A DNA stretch of 64,000 nt from Patescibacteria group bacterium (GTDB lineage Bacteria; Patescibacteriota; Patescibacteriia; UBA9934), in the NCBI GenBank assembly GCA_018062825.1, contig JAGORL010000001.1, positions 314,758-378,757 on the forward strand. The letters run 5' to 3'. Position 1 is the stretch's first letter. Every line of letters begins with the position of its first letter. The translations under genes and the position numbers were made by a program. The notes under the pieces are model-generated. The model did no database searches. It saw only the letters and a program-made list of their open reading frames with translations, and was not told the DNA's origin. This document shows, piece after piece, positions 3,802 to 43,702 of the stretch.

Positions 3802-4971
3802 CTACGGCAGCGGATCGCCGCGGTCGTCCACCCGGATCTCGAAGATGACGAACGGCGACGGGTCCGGCACAGGGGATCCGACGAGCACGTCATCGACAGC
3901 ATGGTTCACCACGTAGGCGCGCTTCTTGTCCGGGTGAAGCGCGATCGTGGACGGCTGCACGAAGGAGACGTTGACGTTCTCCGGCTGAGTGATGCGATCG
4001 ATCTCGTAGGGGTCGAAGTCGCACTCGTTGAGGCCCGAGATGACGCTCACGGAGTTGTCGCCCGCGAGCACCGCGTACAGGTCACCGTTCTGCGCGAACG
4101 CCAGCCCATCGGGCAGGTCATTCAGGCCGTACTCGTACACGATCTCCGGGGTCTCGCCGAGATCGTTCAGTGGCACGCGGTAGATCTTGCCGGTCGCTCC
4201 GGGAGCGCCGGGGAAGGGCACCCCGCCCGTGAACGCGAAGTAAAGGTACTCGCGCTCCGGATCGAGCTTGATGCCGTTCATGCCCAGGCGCCCGCCTCCG
4301 AAGAAGCCGAGCAGCGGGTCCACGATGACCGGCACGGGCTCACCACCACCCGGGGGAACCATGAAGATGATGCCCTGGATGCTGTCCGTCACGTAGAGCT
4401 CGCCCGCCGGGCCGACGACGATCCCGTTCGGGACGGACGGCGGCAGGCCGGGAATGGGCGGCACCTCGATGAGCTGCGGGAAGGGCGTCGACGTGTGCAG
4501 CGACTGGGTCCAGGTGGGCCCGAAGCACGTGTCGACGATCGAGAACTTCACCACACCGAGCTGGGTGCTGTTCACGTACAGGTTGCCATCCGCGTCGAGC
4601 GCGGACTCGCTGAAGGCGTGCTCGAACAGGATGTTCTCGCCGTCGGCCTCGAGCGTGTCGATGAGGTCACCGTCGTTGAGATCGTAGACCCGAACCCAGG
4701 AGGCCGGTAGGCCGGCGGTCGGCGAGGCGGCCGGACCGGTCACGTACAGGAGCTCGCGGTCGTAGTCGACGACCACGCCTTCGGGCCATTCGTAGCCCGC
4801 CGGCATGGTGGCGAAGATCTCCGCCGAGCCGACGTTGCCCTGACCGTTGTTGTGACCACCGCCATGGCCACCACCGTGACCATGACCGTTGTTGTGACCA
4901 CCGGGTGGCCCGCCGTGGGCGAGCGTGGTGGTCGGAATGATGAGTAGAAGCGTGAACAACAGCTGACGCAA
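3802..4971 (-). CDS. Secreted beta-propeller protein (SMP-30/gluconolactonase/LRE-like or NHL-like repeats) with an N-terminal His/Gly-rich tract.
   Basis: Signal peptide MRQLLFTLLLIIPTTTLA. Then HGGPPGGHNNGHGHGGGHGGGHNNG (a putative metal-binding tract). Repeated ...LYVTDS.../...GDLYAV... blade-like motifs. TTG start with AGAGAGG upstream. ~65% GC. Confidence 0.5.
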   Translation of the reverse strand: MRQLLFTLLLIIPTTTLAHGGPPGGHNNGHGHGGGHGGGHNNGQGNVGSAEIFATMPAGYEWPEGVVVDYDRELLYVTGPAASPTAGLPASWVRVYDLNDGDLIDTLEADGENILFEHAFSESALDADGNLYVNSTQLGVVKFSIVDTCFGPTWTQSLHTSTPFPQLIEVPPIPGLPPSVPNGIVVGPAGELYVTDSIQGIIFMVPPGGGEPVPVIVDPLLGFFGGGRLGMNGIKLDPEREYLYFAFTGGVPFPGAPGATGKIYRVPLNDLGETPEIVYEYGLNDLPDGLAFAQNGDLYAVLAGDNSVSVISGLNECDFDPYEIDRITQPENVNVSFVQPSTIALHPDKKRAYVVNHAVDDVLVGSPVPDPSPFVIFEIRVDDRGDPLP

Positions 4972-5062
4972 CTCGAACCTCTCTGAACTAGCATCTATTG
5001 ATGCGCCTCGTTATGAGGCGGCGAATAGTATAGTGTTCAAAAACAAGATAGCCAAACGAGTA

Positions 5063-8640: not shown

Positions 8641-9321
8641 TTAGTACTCTGTCGGTATCGGTGTGGTTGCTGATCCTACGGTGTACTCTCCCCAAACACG
8701 TTTTGATCGTTCTTCAAAGGCAGCGCGAGCAGCAGGGAGTTTGGCAACAAGGATGGCGGGCAAAATCTTGTAAATCTGCTCAAGCACCTCCGGAGCTACT
8801 CCTTGCATGCTCCAAGAAAATCCTTCGGCATACATTGCGGCCACCTCATCATCAGTAATAGGAGGAAAGCCAGCGTTGTCGCGAAGTGCTGGTGTGATTT
8901 GAGCCTCCTCAAACGCTAAGTGCTCATCGATCAACGTTTTAAGTCCATGAAGCACTGCTTCTGCCTGCTCAGGGTGTGCTAGATCAGCAAATGCTGCATC
9001 CCCGCGTTCAAGTACCGGATCAATGTGATGATGCTGTTCGGTCAGTTGATCAAGTGCTGCGGCAAGATCAGCATGCTTACTACGAATATCAGGAAAGATA
9101 TTCGTATCTTCCATAGTGTGATGACCGTGGAGCGCTTGGCGATAGCTCGTATTCCACTCATTGCGTACATGCTCAGCGCGTGATGTATCGCCAGCCTTAA
9201 TCTGCTCCACCGCACGAATGAATCGCGCAATATCACGACGAAACGCATGGTGAGAACTAAGAAGCAGAGTAGCCATGGAGGCCGTACCGTCGTCATTTAA
9301 GAAGTTGGGAGCTAAAGGCAT
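8641..9321 (-). CDS. Hemerythrin-like (HHE cation-binding) domain protein.
   Basis: Motifs HH..EDTNIFP and further H...H pairs typical of the hemerythrin/HHE fold. Confidence 0.55.
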   Translation of the reverse strand: MPLAPNFLNDDGTASMATLLLSSHHAFRRDIARFIRAVEQIKAGDTSRAEHVRNEWNTSYRQALHGHHTMEDTNIFPDIRSKHADLAAALDQLTEQHHHIDPVLERGDAAFADLAHPEQAEAVLHGLKTLIDEHLAFEEAQITPALRDNAGFPPITDDEVAAMYAEGFSWSMQGVAPEVLEQIYKILPAILVAKLPAARAAFEERSKRVWGEYTVGSATTPIPTEY

Positions 9322-9334
9322 ATGCTGATCAAAT

Positions 9335-9712
9335 TTACTCTTTACGTAAAACCTTCTCCATCACTTTTCCTCTTGCCAGTTCATCGATCAACTTATCAAG
9401 GTAACGAATCTCACGCATAGTCGGCTCCTTAATATCCTCTACCCGAACGCCGCACACAACACCAGTAACTAAGCTGCGTAGGGGATTCATGCGCGGAGCT
9501 TTGGCAAAGAACGTTTCAAAGTCCGTTTGCTTCTTGATTTGAGACTCAAGTCCTTTCTGGGTATAGCCGGTGAGCCAACGAATAACCTGATCGACCTCAT
9601 CTTTGGTTCGGCCTTTGCGTTCTACCTTTGTAATATAAAGAGGATAGACGCTCGCAAAGCTTGTGGTGTAGATGCGATGTTTTTGTGGTGAACCGTTCTG
9701 ATCATTGCGCAT
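9335..9712 (-). CDS. DUF2200-family protein.
   Basis: Family-typical N-terminus ([37 protein letters not shown]). Confidence 0.55.
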
Positions 9713-9717
9713 AAAAT

Positions 9718-10035
9718 TTATTTTGTACTCTTCTTGCCCTTACGGTTCAAGATACCTTGGACCGACGGGCTAATCTTCTTGTCTGTTCTGTGAGTACAGC
9801 CAAGCCAGCAGCATGGTCGACGTTGCCCTTCTTTGAGTTCATCAATCATGCGTTCAACGTGTTCTTGCCTTGTTTCTACCTTCTTAACAAAAGTCACCCA
9901 ACAGATCCACTCATTACGAGCAAGGGGTGTAAGGCTCTCCCAGGCCGCGAGCGCGCCTTTGCTCTTCATGAGCGCTTGGCGGATATCGGGCGTGAGTTTA
10001 TGAGCAGTGCCGTTTGAAATAGTGGTGCTGAGCAT
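9718..10035 (-). CDS. YdeI/OmpD-associated family protein (DUF1905-like).
   Basis: C-terminal signature [12 protein letters not shown]. Confidence 0.55.
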
Positions 10036-10054
10036 AGGGTGACACTTAATATGA

Positions 10055-10240
10055 TCAAAGTGTTGCCAATTCTTTTTCGATCAATACAGAGGCTATTTGA
10101 AAAGCCTTAATTCTGCGAACAAGGAGCGTGTGCTGTGAAGAGCCCTCTTGTAAGCGTGGCTGCACTTTCTCGCACTTGCCAATAGTAGACATTATGGCGC
10201 GAAGCGCTTCTGATAACTCTTCTTGCGTAAAATTACTCAT
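10055..10240 (-). CDS. Hypothetical small protein (61 aa).
   Basis: ORF in the same orientation, 20 nt upstream of ydeI-like and tightly packed into the minus-strand run. No motif recognised. Confidence 0.3.
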   Translation of the reverse strand: MSNFTQEELSEALRAIMSTIGKCEKVQPRLQEGSSQHTLLVRRIKAFQIASVLIEKELATL

Positions 10241-10499
10241 ACTATTGTCTCATAAGAGAATAATGGTCGAGCTGCACTTGGAACAATCCTATGTTCACTT
10301 CGCCTCCTCTTTAATAAGTAGCAAAGATATCGCCATTTGGCGAGGTTTTTGCTCAGCGAGTTTTGCTCGCCGTGTCTAAGAGGCTGAGTTTGTTAACTTA
10401 AAGCCTGTTGAGTTCCAAGAGTTCTTAAAACGCGTGAGCTAGGGCAAATGCAAAAACACCTTGCAATGCAGGATGTTTTTAGTTGTATCGGGGTGTAGC

Positions 10500-10685
10500 T
10501 TAGGCTGCTTCAAATCGTGCCTTATTTTCAATCATCCACCTCTCCATGTCTTCTTTTGTCTTGCTCGAATCATGCATTACATCGGCATGAGCTTCCATAT
10601 AATGAGGCATGAGTGCTTTCATCCAATCCTCAAAAGTTTCACCAACTGCAGTCACTTCACAGAGATCACATTTCATTGTTTTCAT
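10500..10685 (-). CDS. DUF1059-family small metal-binding-like protein.
   Basis: MKTMKCDLCEVTAVGETFEDWMKALMPHYMEAH matches the DUF1059 pattern (Cys pair plus His). Confidence 0.55.
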   Translation of the reverse strand: MKTMKCDLCEVTAVGETFEDWMKALMPHYMEAHADVMHDSSKTKEDMERWMIENKARFEAA

Positions 10686-10718
10686 AATATAGCTTAGTAG
10701 TGAATAGTGCTTTGTCTG

Positions 10719-11195
10719 CTATTCAGCGATCGCTTTAAGTCGCTTGAGCGCCTCATTCCACATAGTGGTGAAGAGTTCTGCATACTCATCATTAACGTCT
10801 ATATCGACCTTTACCTCCGTTCCACCATCAACCTCGGTGAAGGTGTAGTTCTCAAACGCCGGAGCCCACTTTTTTGCTTCCTCGCTCGTTGTATCTTCAA
10901 TGCCATCTTTCACAATCCCCTGATGTTCAATGGAGATAAATTCGTACGGCTTATTTTCCGCAATGCGACCAACCATGCCGCCTTCACCAGATCCTTCAGG
11001 ATTTGGACCAAGGAATAATATTTTTGATCCCTTGCTCCAGTCGCCAACAAAATACGATCCAGGATTAAACGTACTCGCCCAATCACGATACGTTGCGTCA
11101 TCAAGCATGGTATGCCAGAGCTTTTCCTTTGGAGCTTGAATTACGATTGAAAAATGAAGTTTTTGCATAGTAAGGCCAGTATAGTCATCGATCAT
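10719..11195 (-). CDS. SRPBCC-superfamily protein, AHSA1 (activator of Hsp90 ATPase homolog)-like.
   Basis: Length and motif pattern of PF08327-like proteins (..IVIQAPKEKLWHTMLDD..YRDW...). Confidence 0.5.
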   Translation of the reverse strand: MIDDYTGLTMQKLHFSIVIQAPKEKLWHTMLDDATYRDWASTFNPGSYFVGDWSKGSKILFLGPNPEGSGEGGMVGRIAENKPYEFISIEHQGIVKDGIEDTTSEEAKKWAPAFENYTFTEVDGGTEVKVDIDVNDEYAELFTTMWNEALKRLKAIAE

Positions 11196-11278
11196 TGATG
11201 GTACAAGGCGCCGGCGTTATTCGCTTTCACGGCCTTAAACAGAAATCACACCGATGTGATTTCTGTCCTTAAGATAGA

Positions 11279-12040
11279 TTAAGCATGTGCGTCACAGTAT
11301 GCGTAGATAGCATCGCGCATAAACTCCGGCAAATCTTTGTGGTGTTTTTCAAAGTAAGCACGGAATCGGGCATCGCCTTGGTAGCCGATATACATGTCAG
11401 CGAGTCCTCGATACATTGTGAGATTGGGTTCGTAGAAAAACTTTAAGCTGTCATAGTGACGTTGTACAAGTGCCTGCACCTCGGGGCTATGTACCGGCTT
11501 ATCCATGTTCGCCACAATCTCATCCATTAAGGCTTCACCGTCTTTTTGCATCTGCATCTTTTCCTCAGCTGTAAGAGATTCGTACTTACCAACGGACTGT
11601 TTGTACTGATCTGTATCACCCCAACGTTCCTTTGCCTCTTTATTCCAGGCCTCCTGTTCTTCTTTTGAAAAACCTTCGTACAATTCATTGTCTTGCATAG
11701 TGTTTTCGTGAGCAATTTTCTTAATGGTTTTATCGATTGTTTTAAGTAAGCTGTTCATTCGCTTCTTCTTGAGCTCTATAAGTTTCCTGTGTTCAACAAG
11801 TGCTTTGCCAACATCAAAACTTTGATCATCAAGTATGTCCTTGATGCTTGCAAGAGGGAATTCTAGCTCGCGAAAGAACATGATTTGCTGCAGCCTTAAT
11901 AAGTCACCTTCATTGTATTGGCGATAACTATTCGCAGCACTACGACTCGGCTTTAATAATCCGATCTTGTCGTAATAGTGCAGGGTTCTCACTGTTACTT
12001 CCGCTAAGGTTGCTAGTTGCTGGATGTTATAAGTTTTCAT
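11279..12040 (-). CDS. MerR-family transcriptional regulator with a C-terminal TipAS-like antibiotic-recognition domain.
   Basis: N-terminal MerR HTH (YNIQQLATLAEVTVRTLHYYDKIGLL) with a C-terminal TipAS-like helical domain. Confidence 0.7.
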   Translation of the reverse strand: MKTYNIQQLATLAEVTVRTLHYYDKIGLLKPSRSAANSYRQYNEGDLLRLQQIMFFRELEFPLASIKDILDDQSFDVGKALVEHRKLIELKKKRMNSLLKTIDKTIKKIAHENTMQDNELYEGFSKEEQEAWNKEAKERWGDTDQYKQSVGKYESLTAEEKMQMQKDGEALMDEIVANMDKPVHSPEVQALVQRHYDSLKFFYEPNLTMYRGLADMYIGYQGDARFRAYFEKHHKDLPEFMRDAIYAYCDAHA

Positions 12041-12170
12041 AGTTTAATGCAGTGTCGACCTCACTTATTCCTAAGCATAAACTATCACGTAACGTTAGAG
12101 TCAAGTACTCTCAAAAGTAATGTTGAGCGAGGGTTAAATGAAAAGAAATCGCACCATGCAACGCATGATG

Positions 12171-12205
12171 TGATCTCTGGCTCCGATTGCTGAACGGTTC
12201 AGAGC
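12171..12205. repeat. Hairpin-containing repeat A (TCTCTGGCTCC...CTGAACGGTTCAGAGCC), related to repeat B at 13067-13105.
   Basis: Shares an identical TCTCTGGCTCC block and the palindromic CTG(A/G)ACG..TTCAGA with repeat B. The two repeats flank the SGNH hydrolase gene. Confidence 0.4.
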
Positions 12206-12224
12206 CGCAAAATGGATCTTATAA

Positions 12225-12959
12225 TTATTTGATTGGAAATGCGTCCAATTCTTTTGACATCAGAGAGAACCAGTCAGCGTATCCGGCGTCACTCGGATGG
12301 AATTTATCCTCTGCGTAAAGATGCGTAGGATCGAGGGCAAAAGGGTCGAGGGCACGCTCGCGTAGAAGATCGGTATAACGCACCGTTGCAGAATCATGGC
12401 GCGCTACTTCAGCTTTCATGATTTCTCGAATTTTGTATCCTCGTAGCGCAAAAATCCAGCGACTGCCGAAAGGGAAAAGGGGAACGGTGCCAATATCGCC
12501 CGTTGAGGTTACGAGCACGTAATCACCTTTTTCTTTTGCCTGCGCCATAAGTTCAGCAAAATCTTTTGCGAACTCATCATTATTCGTAAAGCGAATAGCA
12601 TCATTGCCTCCAATGTGAATCATCACCAAATCAAAATCAGTTTCTTTGATTTCCGATAACTGCTTAACGGCGTCTCGCATGCGTGCACCACTTACGGATG
12701 CATTCACGATATGAGCGTCCGGATATCGTTTCGCCGTGAGGCCTGCTGGCGAAAATTCAGGCGAGCTCGCTCCAACTCCCACGCCCGTGCTATCGCCAAG
12801 AACAAGAATTTTCAACGTAGCCTGAGGAAGAGGGCGAGAAAAGGGAATAGCACGATCAGAAAGCTCTGTGCCAATGCGGATGAATTGAGTCGTCCGAATA
12901 TATTGAAATAAGATAAACCCGATTCCCGCGACGAGAAGAAAGAACAAGAAAATGCGCAT
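12225..12959 (-). CDS. SGNH/GDSL-family hydrolase with an N-terminal membrane anchor.
   Basis: Block I LVLGDSTG, block III IHIGGNDA and block V DKFHPS. The ATG at 12959 has GAGG 4 nt upstream; the longer 13055 start is less likely. Confidence 0.65.
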   Translation of the reverse strand: MRIFLFFLLVAGIGFILFQYIRTTQFIRIGTELSDRAIPFSRPLPQATLKILVLGDSTGVGVGASSPEFSPAGLTAKRYPDAHIVNASVSGARMRDAVKQLSEIKETDFDLVMIHIGGNDAIRFTNNDEFAKDFAELMAQAKEKGDYVLVTSTGDIGTVPLFPFGSRWIFALRGYKIREIMKAEVARHDSATVRYTDLLRERALDPFALDPTHLYAEDKFHPSDAGYADWFSLMSKELDAFPIK

Positions 12960-13066
12960 ATGCCTCAGTCTAACAACGAGGTTCATATAAATCAACGAAC
13001 ATGATTCGTTGTGTGAGAATACGTAGTTTCCACAAAAGAAAAACCACCACATCACTGTGATGGCTT

Positions 13067-13105
13067 CTCTGGCTCCCTCTACTGGACGCGTTCAGAACTC
13101 TGAAT
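13067..13105. repeat. Hairpin-containing repeat B, lying at the GC transition into the AT-rich island.
   Basis: See repeat A. Followed by the inverted repeat CTGAAT-(9 nt)-ATTCAG at 13100-13120. Confidence 0.35.
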
Positions 13106-13133
13106 TGGCAGGTGATTCAGAAGGAGATTGAAT

Positions 13134-13730
13134 TTAGCGGGATGGCTTCCTACGCTTAATACCAGTTCTGTGTGGCTGCTTACCGTCGAATAATAGTTTA
13201 AGGGAATCTACGACCGAACCTGCTCCTAGGACAATAATGAGAACGCCGTCTATCTTTAGCTTTTCCTTCAAATCCCAGAAAAGCTCCTCAATCAGCTTTA
13301 CGCGTTTCACTAAATAGTCGGGATCAACCATGATCGGTGTATTTACTGGCCAAGAGTCTTTTTCAATAGTGTTGTGAGCTGTATTGAAATGTCCCACCCT
13401 GTTGTACCGAGCCGTCAAAACCTCTTTCGTAGTTGCTTTAATTTTCAGTATCTTCGCGTGATAGTGAAGACGCTGTTTCTCGGAAGGCAACAATCCGCAA
13501 AGAGTAAAAAGCGACGAGGTTTGATCATCTTGATCGAGAAGGTTACTCAATACGTTTACCGCGTCTCTGCTATAAACGTCTGCCATAGATAAGAGGAAAG
13601 CTCCGTGTTCCTTGGCGATCTTTTCTTTTTCATAGATATAGCTCAATACCCCAATGGTTTCTTTGAGTCTATTCAGGGAATCGTTGATGTGATCGGTTAT
13701 ATCCTTTGGACGGAGCTTAGCCTTCGGCAT
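13134..13730 (-). CDS. Hypothetical protein (198 aa), island cargo; contains a possible HEPN-like Rx5H motif (RYNRVGH).
   Basis: AT-rich ORF divergent from 13780-14910. No family recognised. The HEPN suggestion rests on the short motif only. Confidence 0.45.
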   Translation of the reverse strand: MPKAKLRPKDITDHINDSLNRLKETIGVLSYIYEKEKIAKEHGAFLLSMADVYSRDAVNVLSNLLDQDDQTSSLFTLCGLLPSEKQRLHYHAKILKIKATTKEVLTARYNRVGHFNTAHNTIEKDSWPVNTPIMVDPDYLVKRVKLIEELFWDLKEKLKIDGVLIIVLGAGSVVDSLKLLFDGKQPHRTGIKRRKPSR

Positions 13731-13779
13731 ATCTTCTTACTTTACTATTCTTTACTATATCGGGTAAAGTACGCTCATT

Positions 13780-14910
13780 GTGAGCGAAAATGATTCAGAG
13801 ATTAACTTCTTCATTGAAGATTCAAAGCTCTACACTCTTTGGGTTTATTCACGACCCGATTTTTATCCAAGAGAATATTTTGGAATTGGCGAAATCACTC
13901 CTGCACAATACGACCATAAGGCAATTTTTAACTTTCTTAGAATAAGGCTGAAGATGGCCGATGTTCAGTTCAAAAGCTTTAATGCCTACGGCGATAACGA
14001 CTACTCAAAGATGGCTCTCCCACCCACGGATGCTACGCTTAAGGGATGCGATGATAAGCAGAAAAAAGCTATCCTAGCGGCCTGCAAGAAGTTTCGATCT
14101 GAACCATTCGGGTTAAAAGAGATCGACCTTCTACTTCCTTACTATTACAGCTTGTTTGATTATTTTTACTGGCGACCGTCCTTAACATCTACAGAACTGG
14201 CGAAAATTAAAACTCACATAAACGAGTACATTGATTTGTTTCTGAATACGGAACTCTTCGTTTACAACAGAAACTATTTTATTTTCGAAAAACAAAAACA
14301 GGTATTCATTGAACGATTAAGAAAGATGTCCGCTATCGAAAATTTTGGCTCGAATTTTATTGTTAGCGAAACCGCTAAGGGATATGAAAAGACCGAATCA
14401 CAAAACGGTTTCCTCTTCATTCACACGCTATATGCCCTGCAGAAGCTAAACTATATTAGTGTAATACGATTGTGGCATGAACGAACGGATACAGGACACA
14501 CTTTCCATGCAAACATTGTAATTTTTGATACCTTAATCGAGGAAGTAAATAACAGCTACAAGAAGGACAATCCTAAAAACGTTATAGATAAATTTGATGA
14601 AAAGAAAGGCGTTCTAAAGTTCGCTGAGCAGGAGATAGAGCTTTCAAAGAAGGGCAAGCAGACTGATGCGGTTCTTTTAATGAAAACTCTCCTCAAAACT
14701 GAAGGCGACGACTGGAAACACAACGACGAAATATTAACTGATTGGGGCTATAACGACGATGATCAGAAGGGAGTAGCGAAAAACAAGGTCTATTATGCAG
14801 GCCAAAAGATAAATAATGCCGTGGAACTCAAAACAAAGATAGGCGATTTCATTGAGTGCAATACTTCAAAGGCTCGAATCAATCCCAAATATAGAAAAGT
14901 TGATGAATAA
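13780..14910 (+). CDS. Hypothetical protein (376 aa), island cargo.
   Basis: AT-rich ORF followed by a terminator at 14954-14982. No family recognised. Confidence 0.5.
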   Translation: MSENDSEINFFIEDSKLYTLWVYSRPDFYPREYFGIGEITPAQYDHKAIFNFLRIRLKMADVQFKSFNAYGDNDYSKMALPPTDATLKGCDDKQKKAILAACKKFRSEPFGLKEIDLLLPYYYSLFDYFYWRPSLTSTELAKIKTHINEYIDLFLNTELFVYNRNYFIFEKQKQVFIERLRKMSAIENFGSNFIVSETAKGYEKTESQNGFLFIHTLYALQKLNYISVIRLWHERTDTGHTFHANIVIFDTLIEEVNNSYKKDNPKNVIDKFDEKKGVLKFAEQEIELSKKGKQTDAVLLMKTLLKTEGDDWKHNDEILTDWGYNDDDQKGVAKNKVYYAGQKINNAVELKTKIGDFIECNTSKARINPKYRKVDE

Positions 14911-14953
14911 TATATAAACGTCCATCAACATTTACAAATGCCCTGACATTTAC

Positions 14954-14982
14954 CCTGTGGTCAAACCTCAGGGTTTTTGTTA
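14954..14982 (+). terminator. Intrinsic terminator CCCTG-tggtcaaacct-CAGGG followed by TTTTTGTT.
   Basis: 5-bp stem with a T-tract, 44 nt after the stop of gene 13780-14910. Confidence 0.55.
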
Positions 14983-15121
14983 TGCAGCATTTAACTCAAC
15001 AAAGAGAGCAAGACGTAATATCCGAATCAAAGGATGTTTCTCTCGAAGACGAGCGCAATCTCGTTGATTTCTTTGCATTGCTTTTAGCCGTTGATAAACG
15101 AGTAAATAACAAAGCGAATTT

Positions 15122-16255
15122 ATGATTGATACCGTCTGCCTCCTTATTCCCCTGAACCATGTCGTCTTTCTCGACAAAGCCAATAAAGAGATTCCTGATT
15201 GGGACTTACATTCTAAGACTGAGAACTATCAAAAGTTCGTCAGAAACCCTACAAAAAAGGATAAGGAAAGTGGCCTATATTTTCCACGGATTACACTCTA
15301 TCAAAGACGTTACCAGCGTGAAATCAATGTAAAAATAGAGTTCTCAGCTCCAAAGCTACTGTACGAAAATAATCTTGAAGAGCTAAAGGATTCCGACTTC
15401 GATAAGGTAATTGATCTATTACAGGATCGGCTCAAGCGCATGGGATTAAGGGTCTTCCGTAAGTTCTTAGTTGAAGCCGACGTTTCTTCGATCCATTACT
15501 CCAAAAATATCCTGCTTTCGGATGGCTATACGGCTAGTTATCTGATAGCAGAAATGAGCAAGATTGATCTAAGAAAGAGCTTCGATTTTGCCCGTGCTCG
15601 CTACATCAATGACGGTCAAAGCCTGTGCGCCCATACCTCATCTCACGAGCTAGTCATATACGACAAGGTAGCCGATTTGAATAAGGGCAAGAAAAGGGCA
15701 ATTGACCGAGATCGAACCCCGTATCAAACGAGTCTATTCGCCGACTTGAAGAACGCGAAGAAGCTGATAGAAATCTTGCGGTTTGAAATTCGGCTCGGTA
15801 AAAAAGAGAAAATTAAGAGCCTACTCCTGAAATTAGGTCATCAAAAAAAGGTTGCCTTTGCCGAGATGTTCAATACAAGGCTTAGCCAGCAGGTAGTAAC
15901 CCACTATTGGGAAAAGATTATCAGCGCAAAAACCAACGGTCTATTCATTATTCCACCAACACATAAAGACCTGTTACGAGAGATCTACCGAGTTCAACCA
16001 GAGGTCAAACCTAGCCGCGCGTTCTATCTAGTCGGCTTATCTGCATTAGCAAAGGACGGAAACGGTATACGAGAGCTGAGGAGTATCCTTACAGGCAAGA
16101 CAAACGCAAGGACTTGGTATCGGATAATCAAGGATCATCGTGATTTTTCCAAGGCTATTTCAGCAAGCAAAGTCAGAGATTGGGTTTATCAGATAGATCA
16201 ATCCCTAAAGAAGTATGAGCCACTAACACGTTCCACATACGAAATTGCTGTGTAA
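15122..16255 (+). CDS. Rep_trans-family rolling-circle replication initiation protein.
   Basis: Signature blocks ...SSHELVIYDK... (the RIYDK-like block) and ...EILRFEIRLGKK... (the R.E.EL block), as in pT181 RepC and ICE/phage Rep_trans proteins. Confidence 0.5.
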   Translation: MIDTVCLLIPLNHVVFLDKANKEIPDWDLHSKTENYQKFVRNPTKKDKESGLYFPRITLYQRRYQREINVKIEFSAPKLLYENNLEELKDSDFDKVIDLLQDRLKRMGLRVFRKFLVEADVSSIHYSKNILLSDGYTASYLIAEMSKIDLRKSFDFARARYINDGQSLCAHTSSHELVIYDKVADLNKGKKRAIDRDRTPYQTSLFADLKNAKKLIEILRFEIRLGKKEKIKSLLLKLGHQKKVAFAEMFNTRLSQQVVTHYWEKIISAKTNGLFIIPPTHKDLLREIYRVQPEVKPSRAFYLVGLSALAKDGNGIRELRSILTGKTNARTWYRIIKDHRDFSKAISASKVRDWVYQIDQSLKKYEPLTRSTYEIAV

Positions 16256-16285
16256 AGAAAAGTAAAGTATAATTATAACTACAAT

Positions 16286-16468
16286 ATGCACACGGAAGAA
16301 AGTAAATTCTATACATCTCAAGAACTTTCAAAAGTCTTGAAAGTCAATATCATGACCATTTATCGCTATATTAAGGCTGGCAAGTTACAGGCTTATAAAA
16401 TAGGCAAAGAATATCGAATTGCTGAAACTGAGTTTACAAGGTTTTTGAATGAAGCTAGCACCGAATAA
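16286..16468 (+). CDS. xis: Excisionase-family helix-turn-helix DNA-binding protein (HTH_17 / Xis-like).
   Basis: Classic pattern over 60 aa: YTSQELSKVLKVNIMTIYRYIKAGKLQAYKIGKEYRIAETEFTRFL. Confidence 0.7.
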   Translation: MHTEESKFYTSQELSKVLKVNIMTIYRYIKAGKLQAYKIGKEYRIAETEFTRFLNEASTE

Positions 16469-16471
16469 TCT

Positions 16472-17443
16472 ATGGAGGAAAAACTACGAGCAAAAAACAA
16501 CAGAACAACCTTCGTTAGAAGTGAAGAAGTCTTGGAATTGAAGAAAAAGATAGTATCAGGAGATCAGCTGACAAGCGATATTTATAACAAGACGATCTGG
16601 GGGAGGCTTGAAGACGTTACTGTGAAAATCCCTGAGGGGGTTGTTGATCTCCTATTCATCGATCCGCCGTACAACCTAAATAAGGACTTCGGCAATAATA
16701 AATTCCGTGAACTTTCAGGCGATGACTATCAAGTTGTTTTTGAAAAATGGCTACTATCAATAATGCACACCTTAAAGAAGAACGCCTCGGTGTATGTTTG
16801 TTGCGATTGGAAAAGTTCCCCAATGATCTTTAATGTTTTAGATAAGCATCTCAAAGTACGAAATCGCATTACTTGGGAACGCGAAAAAGGGAGGGGGGCT
16901 TTGAGTAATTGGAAGAATTGCTCAGAGGATATTTGGTTCGCTACAGTCTCTGATGATTATAAATTTAACGTTGAGGCCGTAAAACTAAAGAAAAAAGTCA
17001 TCGCACCATACAAAGAAAACGGTCTAGCAAAAGACTGGGCAGAAGAAAGTGACGGAAAATTTAGATTAACTCATCCTTCGAATCTTTGGACGGACATCAC
17101 TATTCCATTTTGGTCGATGCCAGAAAATACTGACCATCCTACACAAAAACCAGAAAAATTAGTCGCAAAAATACTGCTTGCTTCAACACATAAGGATGAT
17201 GTTGTACTCGATCCCTTTCTGGGATCAGGTACGACATCCGTTGTTGCAAAAAAATTAGGAAGGAAATATATCGGCATTGAAATGAACGAAGAATATTGCT
17301 GTCTCGCAGAAAAACGTATTGCTATGGTTGATAAGAATCCGACTATACAAGGGTATCTAGATGGGGTCTTCTGGGAAAGAAATTCTCTAATTGAACAAAA
17401 AGATTCCAACGGAAGCACGGCCTTTAATGCAACGCTTATATGA
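16472..17443 (+). CDS. Type II DNA methyltransferase, beta class (motif IV DPPY precedes motif I); probably an N6-adenine MTase, N4-cytosine not excluded.
   Basis: DLLFIDPPYN (motif IV) comes first, with DPFLGSGTT (motif I, FxGxG) near the C-terminus. This is the circularly permuted beta order of PF01555-type methylases. Confidence 0.8.
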   Translation: MEEKLRAKNNRTTFVRSEEVLELKKKIVSGDQLTSDIYNKTIWGRLEDVTVKIPEGVVDLLFIDPPYNLNKDFGNNKFRELSGDDYQVVFEKWLLSIMHTLKKNASVYVCCDWKSSPMIFNVLDKHLKVRNRITWEREKGRGALSNWKNCSEDIWFATVSDDYKFNVEAVKLKKKVIAPYKENGLAKDWAEESDGKFRLTHPSNLWTDITIPFWSMPENTDHPTQKPEKLVAKILLASTHKDDVVLDPFLGSGTTSVVAKKLGRKYIGIEMNEEYCCLAEKRIAMVDKNPTIQGYLDGVFWERNSLIEQKDSNGSTAFNATLI

Positions 17444-18603
17444 TCGATGATGAAGTGTTAGATTTGATAGCCTTTCTAAAGGCCAAAGATGGCATAGGCA
17501 ATAAAGCTTCTCTAATGAAGGCTGTGTTGGATCAATTTAGATTAACGAAAGATCGATCTGTTTACTACTCTGAACATCTTGCTATTCGTTTTAGCTCATC
17601 GGGATCAACGAGTTTTTCTAACACCGTACTCTCCCTATCAAATCTCCAGAAATTCGACGAACTTCCATTCTTGGTGTGTCTCGTCACTCCAAATACAAAT
17701 GTTATTTACCTAGCAAACTCAACATTCCTTATAAAAATTAGTCACAGTTCGCAACAATTACGGATCGACAATATCCGTGGAAGCTTCAACGGTTCAGATA
17801 TTTGCAAAGTATTTAATGACCTACCGAACTCACCCGAAAACTTTGAAAAGCTATTTGCCATTCATGAAGAATTGGGCTTTGCTGAGAATCTTCCCCGTCT
17901 CGTTGAAGCGACGACTGGTATTGTTCCTTCAGGGAAGAAGTTTGATGTTTCGAACGAAGGAAAAAAGATGATTTTATCAGCTCCCGAAAGAGCGGTCGAG
18001 TTCATCAACTCAAGTGAATACATCGAGTTAAAGACCCATCTAGACGAGATGGTTGCACGTTACAAAGATGAAATCCTGATTGCAGGATTCATTGAAAACG
18101 TAAATATACGAGGAAGAATAATCGAATACCTTATCGCAGGCGAAGACGAAGAATTACGAGCTACACTAGTTAGTGAACTACGCAAGGAAGGTAGCAAGGT
18201 CTCACGCTTCGCAACGAAAAACGACTTAGGCGATTATGTTCGCATTTTTGACAAATTTCATACCGCAACAGATGTTAAGACAAAAATCATGGTCTTAAAA
18301 TCAAATCCAAAAGCCTACAACATCGATAAAATTCTGCATTTTCTTACGCATGAAAAAAGTGTTTTCATGTTTTATTTCATTGGAATTGAGCCTAACAAGA
18401 TCGTCGCACAAGTGCTGGTTTCTGTGTTCCAAAAAGACCTACTCAGGTCAACCATTCTCTTGAAACATTGGGCTGGCAGAAACTCACGAGGTGTTACTCA
18501 ATTCGAAGGTGAAACTATCCATAAACTAATCCTCTCATCAAATAATGATATCGACCTTAAGGAAAGTAAAAAATTCCTCAGAGAGTTGATTGAGCTGGTT
18601 TGA
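17440..18603 (+). CDS. Putative cognate Type II restriction endonuclease (387 aa, no recognisable motif).
   Basis: The start overlaps the MTase stop (ATGA), which suggests co-transcription. Its size and position fit an R subunit. The sequence itself gives no family assignment. Confidence 0.4.
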   Translation: MIDDEVLDLIAFLKAKDGIGNKASLMKAVLDQFRLTKDRSVYYSEHLAIRFSSSGSTSFSNTVLSLSNLQKFDELPFLVCLVTPNTNVIYLANSTFLIKISHSSQQLRIDNIRGSFNGSDICKVFNDLPNSPENFEKLFAIHEELGFAENLPRLVEATTGIVPSGKKFDVSNEGKKMILSAPERAVEFINSSEYIELKTHLDEMVARYKDEILIAGFIENVNIRGRIIEYLIAGEDEELRATLVSELRKEGSKVSRFATKNDLGDYVRIFDKFHTATDVKTKIMVLKSNPKAYNIDKILHFLTHEKSVFMFYFIGIEPNKIVAQVLVSVFQKDLLRSTILLKHWAGRNSRGVTQFEGETIHKLILSSNNDIDLKESKKFLRELIELV

Positions 18604-18616
18604 ATTGGTCGTCCTT

Positions 18617-20175
18617 ATGAAAGCCGTAATTCTTGCTCGGGTTTCAACTGAAGAGCAGAAGGATGCAGGAAACTCTCTTCCTGCACAGATTGAGCGTATT
18701 CAATCTTACTGCCAAAGAAAAGGATTCGCCGTAGCAGAGGTATTTAGCTTTGATGAAAGCGCATATAAAACTAAACGTGATGAGTTCGATAAGATTTTAG
18801 AGTTCCTAGAAAAGACCACAGAAAAGATTGCAGTTTGTTTCGATAAAGTTGATAGGCTCTCACGCAACGTTTTTGATAAACGTGTTTCCACGCTCTACGA
18901 AAAGGCAGTCAACGATCAGATTGAGCTTCACTTTGTCTCAGACGGACAGATCATCAATAATCAAATGTCGGCCGTAGAAAAGTTTCAGTTCGGCATGAGC
19001 TTGGGATTGGCTAAATACTATTCAGATGCTATCAGCGATAACGTAGTACGGGCATTTGAACAAAAAAGACGTGATGGTGAAATTACTGGTCGCTGTCGGA
19101 TCGGCTACATCAATGCCCTTGACCCAATGGGCAATAAAACTGTCTCCCCCGATCCTGACAGATCGCACTTGGTAATAAAGATTTTCGAGATGTACGGTAC
19201 AGGCAATCACTCAATGAAGACTATTCTTGAAGACCTTACCAAAGCTGGGTTGCGAAGTAGGGATGGTTTTAAGCTCTCGAAAAGCAGTATTGAGAACATC
19301 CTACGGGAACCTTTTTATCACGGGATCGCTCGATCCAAGAAATATAATCAAGACTATCCGCACAAGTACGAACGGTTGATCAGTAAAGAGCTTTTTGACC
19401 GTTGCCAAAAAATCAGACTAACCAGAAAGAAGGAGCCATATAAAGCTCTCTCTAAAGATTTCATTTTCAAAGGCCTACTTCGTTGCCAAAACTGCAATTG
19501 CACGATGACCCCTGAAATCAAAAAGGGACGCTTTATTTACTATTCCTGTACCAACTCCAAGGGACAATGCAAGCGGGTCTATGTGCCAGAGAATCAGCTC
19601 CTAAAGCCCGTATACGACGTTCTGAGCCGTTTGTCTGGTATCTCAGAAGGAATACAGAACCTTCTCGTTACAGAGCTTCGTAAGACCACAGAAGCCGAGG
19701 TAGCCTTTCATCAGGCTCAGCTTGGACGTATTCGAAATGAGCAGGATCAGTTTACTAAGCGAAAGGACGCTTTGCTCGACTACCTTCTCGACCAGAGTAT
19801 TACTAAGGAATTACTAAGGATCAGTATGACAAGAAACTGCAAGAGATCATGGACAGGCTTCAGACCCTCAGCCTTGAATTAGAAGAACATTCACGGGCTG
19901 ACTATGATTATCAAACTACAGTAGCTACGGTACTTTCCCTTGCTCGTCGGGCAAAGGATATTTTCGATAGTTCTGAAAACCACGAAAAGAGAGCCTTTAT
20001 AAACTATCTCATTCAGAACCCAACCGTAGCAGGTAAGGAACTTGTCTTTAACCTCAGAAAGCCTTTTGATTTAGTGCTAAATCTTGCAGATGAACAAAAA
20101 AAGACGGTCAACGTTTCCGCTGATCGTCCTTCTTGGCTCGGGGGGTGGGGATCGAACCCACGGCCAATTGGTTAA
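18617..20175 (+). pseudogene. Large serine recombinase (resolvase/invertase N-domain plus recombinase and zinc-ribbon domains), frameshifted by an 11-bp tandem duplication at 19799-19820. The 3' end overlaps tRNA-Asn.
   Basis: N-terminus AVILARVSTEEQ (catalytic Ser). Central recombinase domain and a Cys-rich motif (CQNCNCTM...C). The reading frame switches to the +2 frame (ORF 19849-20175) exactly at the duplicated ATTACTAAGGA. Deleting one copy restores ...LDQSITKDQYDKKLQEIMDRLQTL... Confidence 0.75.
19799..19820 (+). repeat. Exact 11-bp tandem duplication (ATTACTAAGGA x2) that frameshifts the serine recombinase.
   Basis: Direct reading of the sequence: tATTACTAAGGAATTACTAAGGAtcag. Confidence 0.9.
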
Positions 20176-20208
20176 CAGCCAACTGCTCTGCCGCTGAGCT
20201 ACCCCCGA
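20134..20208 (-). tRNA. tRNA-Asn (anticodon GUU), 75 nt, with CCA encoded.
   Basis: Minus-strand read: UCGGGGG-UA-GCUC-AGCGGCA-GAGC-A-GUUGG-CUGUUAA-CCAAU-UGGCC-GUGGG-UUCGAUC-CCCAC-CCCCCGA-G-CCA. All stems pair. U1-A72 and G73 are as in bacterial tRNA-Asn. Confidence 0.9.
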
Positions 20209-33936: not shown

Positions 33937-34466
33937 TGGAGTTCTGGGTCATCGCTGCCGCGATCGCTACGATGGGCCTCGTGCTTGTCGTGTCGATCAC
34001 GATCGCTGCCGCCGCACTCATGTTCCTCTGGCGGCGGTTCACGGAAGGTGTCATGAGGGGTTTTGGCCTGGCGTACATGCCAATGCGGCAAGATTCCCCA
34101 CAGGAGCGAGCCTCGGCTCGGCTCGGTGAGGTGATGATTCCGCTGCGGCAAGAGTCTGCTGCGCCACGCCCAAGGACGGTGTCCCGTCTGGCTGGTGATC
34201 ACAAGCCTGCGCGCCCCCGGCTTGTGCCACAGGCGGTGGACGAAGACCGCACGAAGACGGTCGCCTTCTCACGCTACAACGCCGAAGACGACCAGGACAC
34301 CGAGAGCGACGAAGGTGGCCCGCGCAGCTGGAAGGCTGACGCGAACGACGGCCGTTCCAACATCTCGCTTGAAGGGGACATCACGCCCAGGCCCGCAGCC
34401 GGGCGCAAGGTGCTCCCGTTCACGCCCCCGACGAACTCCTTCCACGACCTGTTCCGGAGGAAGTGA
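33937..34466 (+). CDS. Hypothetical membrane-anchored protein (176 aa) in a GC-rich islet.
   Basis: GGAGG RBS 5 nt before the ATG. N-terminal TM helix followed by a low-complexity tail. Terminator at 34494-34530. Confidence 0.45.
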
Positions 34467-34493
34467 TTGCATTGCCCGCGCCCGGGAGATGCC

Positions 34494-34530
34494 AGGCCCC
34501 TCGTACTCAAGCGAGGGGTTTATTGTTTCT
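34494..34530 (+). terminator. Intrinsic terminator GCCCCTCG-tactcaag-CGAGGGG followed by TTTATTGTTTCT.
   Basis: Read directly from the sequence. Confidence 0.65.
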
Positions 34531-34585
34531 ATCGTGCACTTTACTCTTTTAACGTTACTCTTTAATCTACCCGCGGAGGTGCCCC

Positions 34586-42158: not shown

Positions 42159-42175
42159 ATGGCCGCATTCTATCG

Positions 42176-42212
42176 TGAATAAAAAGAAACGGCACCCGTT
42201 ATGCACGGGTGC
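42176..42212 (-). terminator. Intrinsic terminator CGGCACCCG-tgcataa-CGGGTGCCG followed by TTTCTTTTTATT (minus-strand read).
   Basis: 9-bp stem. The loop contains the TAA of a candidate 57-aa ORF at 42199-42372. Confidence 0.55.
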
Positions 42213-42368
42213 CGGTGAGGCCGAGCTTGCGCAGTCGCAGGCGAGCTCGGATGGTAGCGGCGTCGATCATCATCTGAAATCCGAGGACCGTTTCCGGGCC
42301 AAGGGTGCAGACGGCAACGCCAAGGACTGCGGTGCGGCTAACGAGTGAAACCGTGCGCACGAAGTGGA

Positions 42369-43214: not shown

Positions 43215-43372
43215 GACAAGGTCTCCGGGTTGAGGGGAAAGAGCGACTTGGTAGCGTAGCAGAACCGCGCACCTCAGACAAGTACGTTTACCTAGAACGA
43301 AAAAGCACCCGAACGCAGGGGGCGGGGGTGCTTGAGAGCCGACGGATTCGGCTACGGCCGTGAGCGGGGAGC

Positions 43373-43690: not shown

Positions 43691-43702
43691 ATAATTGCAA
43701 GA

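What the first reader, a model, noticed from the sequence alone, without database searches (positions are those of the whole stretch)
13100..20208. AT-rich integrative element abutting tRNA-Asn, with the recombinase stop codon in the tRNA anticodon loop
A ~7-kb block of ~40% GC interrupts a ~49% GC chromosome. It carries a Rep_trans initiator, an Xis-family HTH, a Type II R-M pair and a large serine recombinase.

The recombinase ORF runs into the 3' half of tRNA-Asn(GUU), which lies on the opposite strand. Its TAA (20173-20175) falls exactly in the anticodon loop. This is the arrangement expected when the element carries the tRNA 3' half and the integrative crossover occurs in the anticodon loop, which here contains the palindromes CCAATTGG and GTTAAC.

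The left boundary is not resolved. It probably lies near 13.06-13.13 kb, where GC drops and where repeat B plus an inverted repeat CTGAAT-(9 nt)-ATTCAG sit.
Basis: partly seen in the sequence, partly recalled or inferred. Interest (0 to 1): 0.75.

Follow-up and report, generated by a model that had tools for sequence, protein, structure and literature searches.

The report
Serine-integrase element at tRNA-Asn 3' end
A 7.1-kb mobile element sits at the very 3' end of a tRNA-Asn gene in a Patescibacteria genome; its serine integrase gene spans the element's own attachment site, so integrating swaps the enzyme's last 29-36 residues, an arrangement shared by hundreds of related elements and not found described in the papers searched.

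Summary
Window 13070-20139 has 40.5% GC against 50.8% in the rest of the window. It carries a Rep_trans-fold initiator, an excisionase-type HTH, a Type II restriction-modification pair and a large serine recombinase (LSR). The LSR reading frame runs antisense into tRNA-Asn and stops at the TAA in the anticodon loop.

The proposed mechanism is wrong. Crossover is not in the anticodon loop, and the element does not carry the tRNA 3' half. It lies in a 4-6-nt block, TGGCTC, at 13070-13075 and 20134-20139. This block is the antisense of tRNA nucleotides 71-76. attP lies inside the LSR gene. Integration leaves the conserved C-terminal tail coding segment orphaned at the left end (13070-13159) and fuses the LSR to antisense-tRNA codons.

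Supporting evidence:
- About 55 of 80 related genomic loci show the same LSR-tRNA overlap.
- Orphan tails were found in about 30 of them.
- Seventeen loci have both junctions resolved.
- One circular 9.55-kb contig carries the intact full-length gene.
- A relative exists in cultured Legionella adelaidensis.

The window's copy is probably immobile, because an 11-bp tandem duplication (19799-19820) frameshifts the LSR. Remnants of an older element lie at 12178-13069.

The parts
12152..12170 (-). Terminator-like hairpin immediately left of the older, degenerate attL. It may be the ancestral terminator of the tRNA gene (B arm).
   Evidence: CATCATGCGTTGCATGGTG followed by a T-rich tail.
12178..12217 (+). 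Degenerate second P' (tail-coding) site carrying a 1-nt deletion. It is the left end of an older, decayed element.
   Evidence: An nhmmer model of P' built without the window gives E=0.0033. See also the alignment and repeat family D6.
12225..13055 (-). GDSL-family lipase gene lying between the two P' sites. It is probably surviving cargo of the older element.
   Evidence: Pfam PF13472 at E=2.7e-19. GC of 12178-13069 is 0.465.
13034..13069 (+). Probable remnant of the 3' end (P arm) of an older LSR gene. It consists of an A-run, a hairpin and TCTC, and reads KRKTTTSL*WLL.
   Evidence: The stretch AAAACCACCA-CAT is shared with the P arm of circular contig L207. Legionella has the same arrangement. 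This is an inference.
13070..13075 (+). attL core TGGCTC, the block of identity with attR.
13070..13159 (+). Orphan C-terminal tail segment of the LSR gene (P' arm plus tail), reading WLPLLDAFRTLNWQVIQKEIEFSGMASYA*. It is in frame with the LSR only in the circular form.
   Evidence: nhmmer E=4e-17.
13134..13730 (-). 198-aa ORF of unknown function (variable cargo).
   Evidence: No family hits. A homologue was found in only 1 of 67 loci.
13780..14910 (+). 376-aa ORF of unknown function, shared by a minority of the elements.
   Evidence: tblastn hits in 8 of 67 loci and in circular contig L207.
15122..16255 (+). Core gene: Rep_trans-fold rolling-circle initiator or relaxase-like protein.
16286..16468 (+). 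Core gene: HTH_17 / excisionase-family protein, the candidate recombination directionality factor.
   Evidence: PF12728 at E=2e-13 and TIGR01764 at E=5e-12. Present in 64 of 67 loci, always just upstream of the cargo and LSR.
16472..17443 (+). Cargo: Type II N6/N4 DNA methyltransferase.
   Evidence: PF01555 at E=5e-45. PADLOC MTase_II at E=7e-63.
17440..18603 (+). Cargo: Type II restriction endonuclease.
   Evidence: PADLOC REase_II PDLC03461 at E=1e-149 over its full length. The pair is shared with L007.
18617..20175 (+). Large serine recombinase gene. It is frameshifted and, in the integrated state, ends in 13 antisense-tRNA codons plus TAA.
19799..19820 (+). 11-bp tandem duplication (ATTACTAAGGA x2) that frameshifts the LSR.
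   Evidence: Removing one copy restores a 515-aa protein that is 90% identical to P0001 over its full length.
20108..20123 (-). Terminator-like hairpin plus T-run directly downstream of the tRNA 3' end, encoded inside the LSR reading frame. It looks like a replacement terminator for the tRNA.
   Evidence: The same hairpin design is seen in L007, L014, L022 and L207.
20134..20139 (+). attR core TGGCTC, the antisense of tRNA nt 76-71. The crossover lies within it. The inferred central dinucleotide is TC at 20138-20139.
20134..20208 (-). tRNA-Asn(GTT), the target gene. It is intact.
   Evidence: It is 75/76 identical to the tRNA at the empty site in L158.

Best explanation
Window 13070-20139 is an integrated 7.1-kb rolling-circle-type mobile element of a large Patescibacteria family. 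The family's core is a Rep_trans-fold protein, an HTH_17 excisionase-like protein and a large serine recombinase (LSR).

Shown:
- The element's attP lies inside the 3' end of the LSR gene.
- attB is the extreme 3' end of a tRNA gene, here tRNA-Asn.
- Strand exchange lies within GCT(C/G). In the window this is TGGCTC, the antisense of tRNA nt 71-76.
- The tRNA body stays host-derived. The element re-supplies the discriminator base and CCA.
- The LSR gene is split. Its conserved tail coding segment, 29 codons here and typically 36, is left as an orphan at attL (13070-13159).
- The truncated gene reads on through antisense tRNA until the first stop, which here is the TAA in the anticodon loop.

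Inferred:
- Only the circular form makes full-length LSR, so the C-terminal swap acts as a built-in marker or switch of integration state.
- The P arm supplies a substitute terminator for the tRNA.
- Excision uses the HTH_17 protein as directionality factor.
- The Rep_trans-like protein replicates or mobilises the circle.
- This particular copy is immobilised by an 11-bp duplication in the LSR.
- It was inserted next to the remains of an older element at 12178-13069.
For: 1. Tail sequence at the left end. The tail of homologue P0004 (L002 3388-3455) and window 13070-13110 are the same sequence type. A P' model built without the window hits 13070-13143 at E=4e-17.

2. tRNA overlap in relatives. 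About 55 of 80 loci from GTDB species genomes, found with the LSR, have the LSR 3' end overlapping an opposite-strand tRNA. Most are Asn. Others are Asp, Gln, His, Tyr and Leu.

3. Orphan tails. Tail-coding fragments sit 5-10 kb upstream on the same strand in about 30 loci. They are typically 36 aa with a conserved stop.

4. Junction pairs. Across 17 attL/attR pairs the common identity block is only GCT(C/G). Host-side arms at attL are hairpin plus T-run, i.e. tRNA terminators, as they are at empty sites. The dyad symmetry of the reconstructed attP peaks right after GCT.

5. Selection on the tail. Tail codons 10-28 differ between pairs at codon positions 1/2/3 by 0.42/0.28/0.58. pN/pS is 0.47, against 0.74-0.78 in the other frames. 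The orphan is therefore under protein-level selection.

6. Circular form. Contig L207 has a 30-nt terminal overlap, and a 607-codon frame closes across the join. It carries Rep, Xis and an LSR with the in-frame tail, and has no tRNA.

7. Homologue termini. Of 119 top homologues, 57 end in antisense-tRNA peptide, 31 stop just after WLxx, and 19 carry the full tail.

8. Element boundaries. Rep and Xis lie inside the predicted attL-attR in all 16 other loci with both junctions resolved, and hit 64 of 67 loci.

9. Cultured relative. Legionella adelaidensis has the same architecture.

10. Composition. z = -7.
Against: - No orthologous empty site from a close relative of this genome was recovered. 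The attB for this particular genome is therefore reconstructed, not observed.
- The exact central dinucleotide rests on a modest symmetry signal: 8.4 of 24 complementary positions against roughly 3.5-7.9 at the other offsets tried.
- Circularity of L207 rests on a k-1 terminal overlap, which a tandem repeat could also produce.
- No experiment shows that the tail matters for activity or directionality.
- The window's left arm is not a clean host flank, so its history (tandem accretion) is inferred.
- The frameshift could be an assembly error.
Confidence: 0.82

Rival explanations
1. The element carries the 3' half of tRNA-Asn, and the serine integrase exchanges strands in the anticodon loop (CCAATTGG / GTTAAC), so the stop codon marks the crossover.
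For: The TAA does lie in the anticodon loop. In many relatives the ORF also ends 40-43 nt into the tRNA.
Against: - No displaced tRNA 3' half or fragment of 13 nt or more exists anywhere in the 64 kb.
- attL matches attP from TGGCTC onward, not from the anticodon loop.
- Stop positions in relatives range from 4 codons to 64 nt into the tRNA.
- The tRNA is 75/76 identical to that of an unoccupied site.
Confidence: 0.03
2. The architecture is as described, but the C-terminal swap has no function. attP simply overlaps the end of the gene for compactness, and the tail is dispensable.
For: - Integrated copies end in arbitrary peptides, or just after WLxx, yet remain otherwise intact.
- The AF2 tail is only moderately confident, pLDDT about 73.
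Against: The tail is conserved in sequence, length and stop position across elements whose LSRs are only about 60% identical. It shows a coding-type substitution pattern beyond the roughly 27-bp att half-site.
Confidence: 0.3
3. The block is a small prophage, for example an inovirus-like element with a Rep_trans initiator, rather than a plasmid-like integrative element.
For: The size is 7 kb, the Rep is of rolling-circle type, and the element sits next to a tRNA. Inoviruses with serine recombinases and CPR hosts have been reported (PMC6813254).
Against: - No morphogenesis ATPase (pI/Zot) or coat-like hits in Pfam or PHROGs.
- Only 2 weak relatives of the LSR occur in 2.9 million IMG/VR contigs.
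- Annotated phage records match at 36% identity or less.
Confidence: 0.07
4. The compositional block is native DNA, and the LSR-tRNA overlap is an annotation accident with no mobility.
For: The LSR here is frameshifted. No empty orthologous site was found.
Against: Composition gives z = -7. The junction architecture is conserved in dozens of unrelated genomes, and a circular form exists.
Confidence: 0.02

Closest known systems
Phage and ICE large serine integrases (phiC31, Bxb1, A118, SPbeta SprA, TndX, CcrAB)
   Same: - Same domain set: Resolvase, Recombinase and a zinc ribbon with a coiled-coil insertion.
- Short non-identical attP and attB that share only a few bases around the crossover.
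- A separate small protein is the likely directionality factor.
   Different: - The target is the 3' end of tRNA genes. [quoted passage not shown] From my own knowledge, which I did not check here, characterised serine integrases insert into protein-coding genes or intergenic sites.
- attP lies inside the integrase ORF, so integration changes the protein.
- Sequence identity to anything in annotated phage or plasmid records is 36% or less.
Myxococcus phage Mx8 integrase (attP within the int gene; the intP and intX gene names are from my own recollection)
   Same: attP lies within the int coding sequence. Integration creates a recombinant gene with a new 3' end and altered integrase properties (PMC6070905). 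That the target is a tRNA gene 3' end is my own recollection, not checked.
   Different: Mx8 Int is, from my own knowledge, a tyrosine recombinase and is unrelated in sequence and chemistry. It is a single phage rather than a broad clade of small plasmid-like elements.
Actinomycete integrative and conjugative elements (pSAM2, SLP1, pMEA300)
   Same: They are small (10-17 kb) elements integrated in tRNA genes, carrying int, xis and a replication initiator. They excise to a circular form (PMC2440964).
   Different: AICEs use tyrosine integrases with long att identity that duplicates the tRNA 3' part. They also carry an FtsK-like transfer protein, and no transfer gene was identified here.
SSV1-type archaeal integrases
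   Same: From my own knowledge, not checked here: the integrase gene contains attP and is partitioned on integration into a tRNA gene.
   Different: These are tyrosine recombinases of archaeal viruses. The int gene is split into two large parts and inactivated, rather than swapping a short tail.
Rep_trans family initiators (RepD/RepDE of pT181-type plasmids, RepSTK1) and, from my own knowledge, MOB_T relaxases
   Different: There is no detectable sequence match to Pfam Rep_trans. The protein has an extra helical C-terminal half of about 150 aa. The catalytic tyrosine was not assigned.

Membership tests
Large serine recombinase (serine integrase) | N-terminal resolvase catalytic domain containing the serine nucleophile | tested here: met
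   PF00239 at E=6e-22. The ARVSTEEQ motif is present, and R8, V9 and S10 are invariant in 30 homologues.
Large serine recombinase (serine integrase) | Recombinase domain plus a zinc-ribbon domain with an inserted coiled coil | tested here: met
   PF07508 at E=1.5e-15 and PF13408 at E=5e-10. The AF2 model of homologue P0043 has long helices at 365-446 between zinc-ribbon strands.
Large serine recombinase (serine integrase) | attP and attB differ and share only a short core around a 2-bp crossover | tested here: met
   The identity block between attL and attR is 4-10 nt, with GCT(C/G) common to all 17 loci. The cleavage position itself was not determined.
Large serine recombinase (serine integrase) | Recombination activity and RDF-dependent excision | not testable with these tools
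   Only indirect evidence is available: a circular contig and the conserved adjacent HTH_17 gene.
Classical tRNA-integrating island (tyrosine integrase; the element duplicates the tRNA 3' part) | A tyrosine integrase, and direct repeats of roughly 15 nt or more of tRNA sequence at both ends | tested here: not met
   The element has no tyrosine recombinase. No tRNA fragment of 13 nt or more occurs elsewhere in the window.
Rep_trans rolling-circle initiators (PF02486) | Sequence match to the family profile | tested here: not met
   No Pfam hit even at E<=10. No NCBIfam or PHROG hit.
Rep_trans rolling-circle initiators (PF02486) | The Rep_trans (TBP-like pseudo-dimer) fold | tested here: met
Rep_trans rolling-circle initiators (PF02486) | A catalytic tyrosine, and nicking at an origin | not tested
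   Invariant Y180, D181 and K182 are noted in alignment A4, but they were not mapped onto the active site. No origin was identified.
Type II restriction-modification system | Adjacent methyltransferase and endonuclease genes that match Type II models | tested here: met
   MTase_II at E=7e-63 and REase_II PDLC03461 at E=1e-149. The genes overlap by 4 nt.
Integrase genes containing attP (Mx8-type C-terminal swap) | attP inside the int ORF, with integration replacing the C-terminus | tested here: met
   This is an analogy only: Mx8 Int is, from my own knowledge, a tyrosine recombinase, so this element is not a member of that family.
Inovirus prophage | A pI/Zot-like morphogenesis ATPase and small coat proteins | tested here: not met
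   No such hits in Pfam or PHROGs. The LSR family is almost absent from IMG/VR.

The most novel reading that the evidence does not exclude
A widespread clade of large serine integrases has specialised on the last few nucleotides of tRNA genes. It has more than 1700 homologues, covers most Patescibacteria lineages, and has outliers in Legionella and in gut contigs. These enzymes carry their attP inside their own coding sequence. Integration and excision therefore reversibly exchange a conserved two-helix C-terminal tail of about 36 aa for junk peptide. This would be a hard-wired, DNA-encoded switch that reports integration state to the recombinase and probably controls its directionality or expression. 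The element also rebuilds the tRNA's discriminator and CCA end and, in one subfamily, its terminator.
Probability: 0.45. Interest if true: 0.8.

Novelty: new variant of a known kind. Interest (0 to 1): 0.66.

Why it matters
- Target class. I did not find any report of a serine integrase that uses a tRNA gene as attB. This clade uses the tRNA 3' end systematically and has retargeted among at least six tRNA species. That offers a natural series for studying how LSRs evolve new attB specificity on a highly conserved, universally present target, which matters for LSR-based genome engineering.

- Self-modifying recombinase. Having attP inside the recombinase gene produces a recombinase that alters itself. 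This parallels Mx8 Int but uses the other recombinase chemistry, which makes the old question of how serine integrases set directionality approachable from a new angle.

- Genetics of Patescibacteria. These elements look like a dominant small mobile-element type in Patescibacteria, where plasmids and genetic tools are almost unknown. An integrating vector based on them is conceivable.

- A culturable test case. The relative in Legionella adelaidensis gives a system that can be grown and tested.

- Annotation. The C-terminal 'WLRGxDSNPRP' extensions on hundreds of database proteins are antisense tRNA, not real protein sequence features.

Tried and rejected
- Search for a displaced tRNA half or a long direct repeat within the window. 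None was found.
- Exact-protein look-ups of the flanking host genes, to find an empty orthologous site. The 125-aa right-flank protein occurs only on a 964-nt contig that breaks inside the tRNA. The GDSL ORF as I delimited it is not on record.
- Exact 44-nt tRNA pattern in JGI metagenomes. There were no hits. A degenerate 30-nt pattern gave 112 empty tRNA sites, mostly from unrelated phyla. Only L158 has a near-identical tRNA, and its flanks are not homologous to the window's.
- IMG/VR scan for the LSR. It found essentially nothing, so the prophage idea was dropped.
- Sequence-based assignment of the 377-aa protein to Rep_trans. This failed, and only the fold search worked.
- The left arm of attL (13034-13069) as a clean host flank. 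I rejected this in favour of a decayed LSR 3' end, because it resembles the P arms of L207 and because Legionella shows the same layout. This remains an inference.
- L206 as a circular contig. Its gene order looks circularly permuted, but there is no terminal overlap, so I did not count it.
- Literature searches. None returned a description of tRNA-targeting serine integrases or of this family. The library holds open-access papers only, so this absence is weak evidence.


Full report
**1. What is in the window**

ARAGORN and Rfam find one tRNA, tRNA-Asn(GTT), at 20134-20208 on the minus strand. To its left is a compositionally foreign block.
- GC of 13070-20133 is 0.405 against 0.508 for the rest of the window. 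That is 7 sd below 172 host 7-kb windows.
- Its tetranucleotide profile correlates at 0.26 with host DNA, whereas host windows give at least 0.71.

Gene content, left to right:
- a 198-aa ORF and a 376-aa ORF with no family match;
- a 377-aa ORF (15122-16255);
- an HTH_17 / excisionase-family protein at 16286-16468 (PF12728; TIGR01764 at E=5e-12);
- a Type II methyltransferase at 16472-17443 and endonuclease at 17440-18603 (PADLOC E=7e-63 and 1e-149);
- a large serine recombinase (LSR) with Resolvase, Recombinase and Zn_ribbon_recom domains.

**2. The recombinase is broken here**

The LSR is not one ORF. An 11-bp tandem duplication (ATTACTAAGGA twice, 19799-19820) shifts the frame. This gives ORFs 18590-19882 and 19849-20175. 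The likely true start is the ATG at 18617.

Removing one copy of the duplication restores a 515-aa protein that is 90% identical over its full length to a metagenomic protein, P0001. The NCBI protein for this locus (P0005, 421 aa, 'Patescibacteria group bacterium') carries the truncation.

**3. Where the element really ends**

No copy of any part of the tRNA exists elsewhere in the 64 kb. The best match is 12 nt, at chance level. This argues against an element-borne tRNA half.

The clue came from the C-termini of homologues. Of 119 close homologues:
- 57 end in a peptide such as WLRGWGSNPRPID, which is a translation of antisense tRNA (TGG = CCA; DSN/GSN = the T-loop);
- 31 stop just after WLxx;
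- 19 continue after WL with a different, conserved tail (LxDxFRTxNW...).

The DNA encoding that tail in P0004 (L002 3388-3455) is the same sequence type as window 13070-13110. Read in frame, window 13070-13159 gives WLPLLDAFRTLNWQVIQKEIEFSGMASYA*.

The last ~30 codons of a full-length LSR gene therefore sit, as an orphan, 7 kb upstream of the gene. The two junctions share only TGGCTC, at 13070-13075 and 20134-20139. That block is the antisense of GAGCCA, tRNA nucleotides 71-76.

**4. Comparative test**

A scan of one genome per GTDB species found 313 stretches encoding relatives of the LSR. I analysed the best 80, almost all Patescibacteria.
- In about 55 of them the LSR 3' end overlaps an opposite-strand tRNA. 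It is mostly Asn(GTT), but also Asp, Gln, His, Tyr and Leu.
- The stop falls anywhere from 4 codons to about 64 nt into the tRNA. The anticodon-loop TAA is therefore incidental: it is the first stop in that frame of tRNA-Asn.
- In about 30 loci an orphan tail fragment lies 5-10 kb upstream on the same strand. It is typically 36 codons, WLPLVDKFRTANWxxIKSELQFSGILGLFPxLSLQN*, with a conserved stop.

For 17 loci both junctions could be written out.
- attL is host hairpin plus T-run, then xxGCTCC, then tail DNA.
- attR is the LSR with a GTCC motif, then TGGCTCC, then antisense tRNA.
- The host-side arms look like tRNA terminators, as do the flanks of 112 unoccupied tRNA sites recovered from metagenomes.
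- One of those unoccupied sites, L158, has a tRNA 75/76 identical to the window's.
- The identity block common to all 17 pairs is just GCT(C/G).
- The dyad symmetry of the reconstructed attP peaks immediately after GCT: 8.4 of 24 complementary positions, against roughly 3.5-7.9 at the other offsets tried.

I infer a TC overlap (TG in one tRNA-Gln site) at tRNA positions 72-71. This is an inference, not a measurement.

In at least six loci the host side of attL reads TTG, CTG or GGG where attR reads TGG. There the ancestral gene lacked an encoded CCA and the element supplies one.

The Rep and Xis genes hit 64 of 67 loci. In all 16 other loci with both junctions resolved they lie inside the predicted attL-attR, in the same order. 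Cargo varies, and the R-M pair is shared only with L007.

**5. The tail is a real protein segment, and circles exist**

Across 24 orphan tails, codons 10-28 lie beyond any plausible att half-site.
- They differ between pairs at codon positions 1/2/3 by 0.42/0.28/0.58.
- pN/pS is 0.47 in frame, against 0.74-0.78 out of frame.
- A segment that is untranslatable in the integrated state is thus under coding selection. That implies regular passage through a form in which it is joined to the LSR.

Such a form was found. Contig L207 (Logan SRR16214425, 9580 nt) has a 30-nt terminal overlap, and a 607-codon frame closes across the join. It carries the 376-aa-like gene, Rep, Xis and an LSR with the tail in frame, and it has no tRNA.

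In-frame tails also occur in chromosomal tandem arrays (L002, L057). An AF2 model of a full-length homologue predicts the tail as two helices at 499-506 and 510-523, with pLDDT about 73.

**6. Other features of the junctions**

In the window and its subfamily the last 13 or so extra codons of the P arm (KKTVNVSADRPS) encode, on the tRNA strand, a hairpin plus T-run immediately after the CCA: 20123-20108, flagged. Similar hairpins are seen in L007, L014, L022 and L207. I read this as a replacement terminator for the tRNA, which is an inference.

Left of the element there is a second, degenerate P' site at 12178-12217, carrying a 1-nt deletion (nhmmer E=0.0033). It is preceded by a terminator-like hairpin at 12152-12170.
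- The 36 nt left of 13070 resemble an LSR P arm: AAAACCACCA..., reading KRKTTTSL*WLL.
- The stretch 10.05-13.07 kb is also compositionally atypical.
- The simplest reading is tandem accretion. The present element inserted next to an older one, of which only P', a GDSL lipase gene and the last few codons of its LSR survive.

Legionella adelaidensis shows exactly that layout. A 108-nt copy of the LSR 3' end (36 codons, 92% identical at the protein level) is fused in frame to a tail 12.4 kb upstream of an intact LSR. That LSR overlaps tRNA-Asn at TGGCTCC.

**7. Mechanism, with status of each step**

Shown by sequence comparison:
- attP lies inside the LSR gene;
- attB is the tRNA 3' end;
- the crossover lies within GCT(C/G);
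- the tRNA body is retained, and the discriminator and CCA are supplied by the element;
- the LSR C-terminus is exchanged;
- a circular form exists;
- the core of the element is Rep, Xis and LSR.

Inferred:
- the identity of the overlap dinucleotide;
- the HTH_17 protein as directionality factor;
- rolling-circle replication or mobilisation by the Rep_trans-fold protein;
- the terminator role of the P arm;
- a regulatory meaning for the tail swap;
- inactivity of this copy.

**8. Comparison with known systems**

The enzyme is a bona fide large serine recombinase by domain content. The closest functional parallel to the gene-spanning attP is phage Mx8. There attP lies within int, and integration creates a new 3' end with altered properties (PMC6070905). 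From my own knowledge, Mx8 Int is a tyrosine recombinase.

The element as a whole resembles actinomycete integrative elements, with int, xis and rep in tRNA genes. Those use tyrosine integrases. [quoted passage not shown]

Seven literature searches found no description of tRNA-targeting serine integrases or of this family. The library is open-access only. Annotated phage and plasmid records hold nothing closer than 36% identity, and IMG/VR holds almost no relatives.

**9. Verdict**

- The window's copy is an ordinary, probably dead, member of the family.
- The family's architecture is a new variant of serine-integrase biology. It would interest mobile-element and recombinase specialists, and it is testable in a culturable relative.

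Noticed in passing
Loci L003-L082: The tRNA targets of this LSR clade are Asn, Asp, His and Tyr, plus Gln and Leu. The first four are exactly the four GUN-anticodon (queuosine) tRNAs. It is not clear whether this reflects shared acceptor or T-arm sequence, or chance.
   Followed up: no
L208 3001-4546 and L210 26396-26600 (Legionella adelaidensis NCTC12735, NZ_LR134433.1): A cultured gammaproteobacterium carries a 36%-identical LSR ending ...RPKWLPGQDLNL* inside tRNA-Asn. A 108-nt copy of the LSR 3' end fused to a tail lies 12.4 kb upstream. The island carries AbiE toxin-antitoxin genes, an Eco57I-like methylase, a helicase and a tyrosine recombinase.
   Followed up: partly
L207 (Logan SRR16214425_863, 9580 nt): Circular contig with a 30-nt terminal overlap. 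It represents the episomal form of a related element. Its cargo is a ResIII helicase and an 8xMP protein.
   Followed up: partly
Window 8641-10035 (minus strand): The hemerythrin, DUF2200 and OmdA genes here have counterparts immediately to the right of the tRNA-side junction in the contig of the 90%-identical LSR P0001. This suggests rearrangement or inversion around the tRNA locus between relatives.
   Followed up: no
Window 10051-12177: GC is 0.427 and tetranucleotide r to host is 0.54. The stretch includes a MerR-family regulator at 11279-12040. It is probably older island material beyond the degenerate attL.
   Followed up: partly
Window 4001-5000, 34001-35000 and 42001-44000: These are GC-rich patches (0.656, 0.619 and 0.57-0.60) in a genome of about 0.51 GC. 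The first overlaps an NHL-repeat ORF at 3802-4971.
   Followed up: no
L209 (MT837677.1, human faecal 'Bacteriophage sp.', 6.4 kb): A 36%-identical LSR sits immediately upstream of an opposite-strand tRNA-Leu(CAG). The architecture therefore also occurs in gut-associated small elements that are labelled as phage.
   Followed up: partly
Database proteins P0001-P0120: Hundreds of deposited 'recombinase family protein' sequences carry C-terminal extensions such as WLRGxDSNPRPID. These are translations of antisense tRNA. It is a systematic annotation feature of this family.
   Followed up: yes
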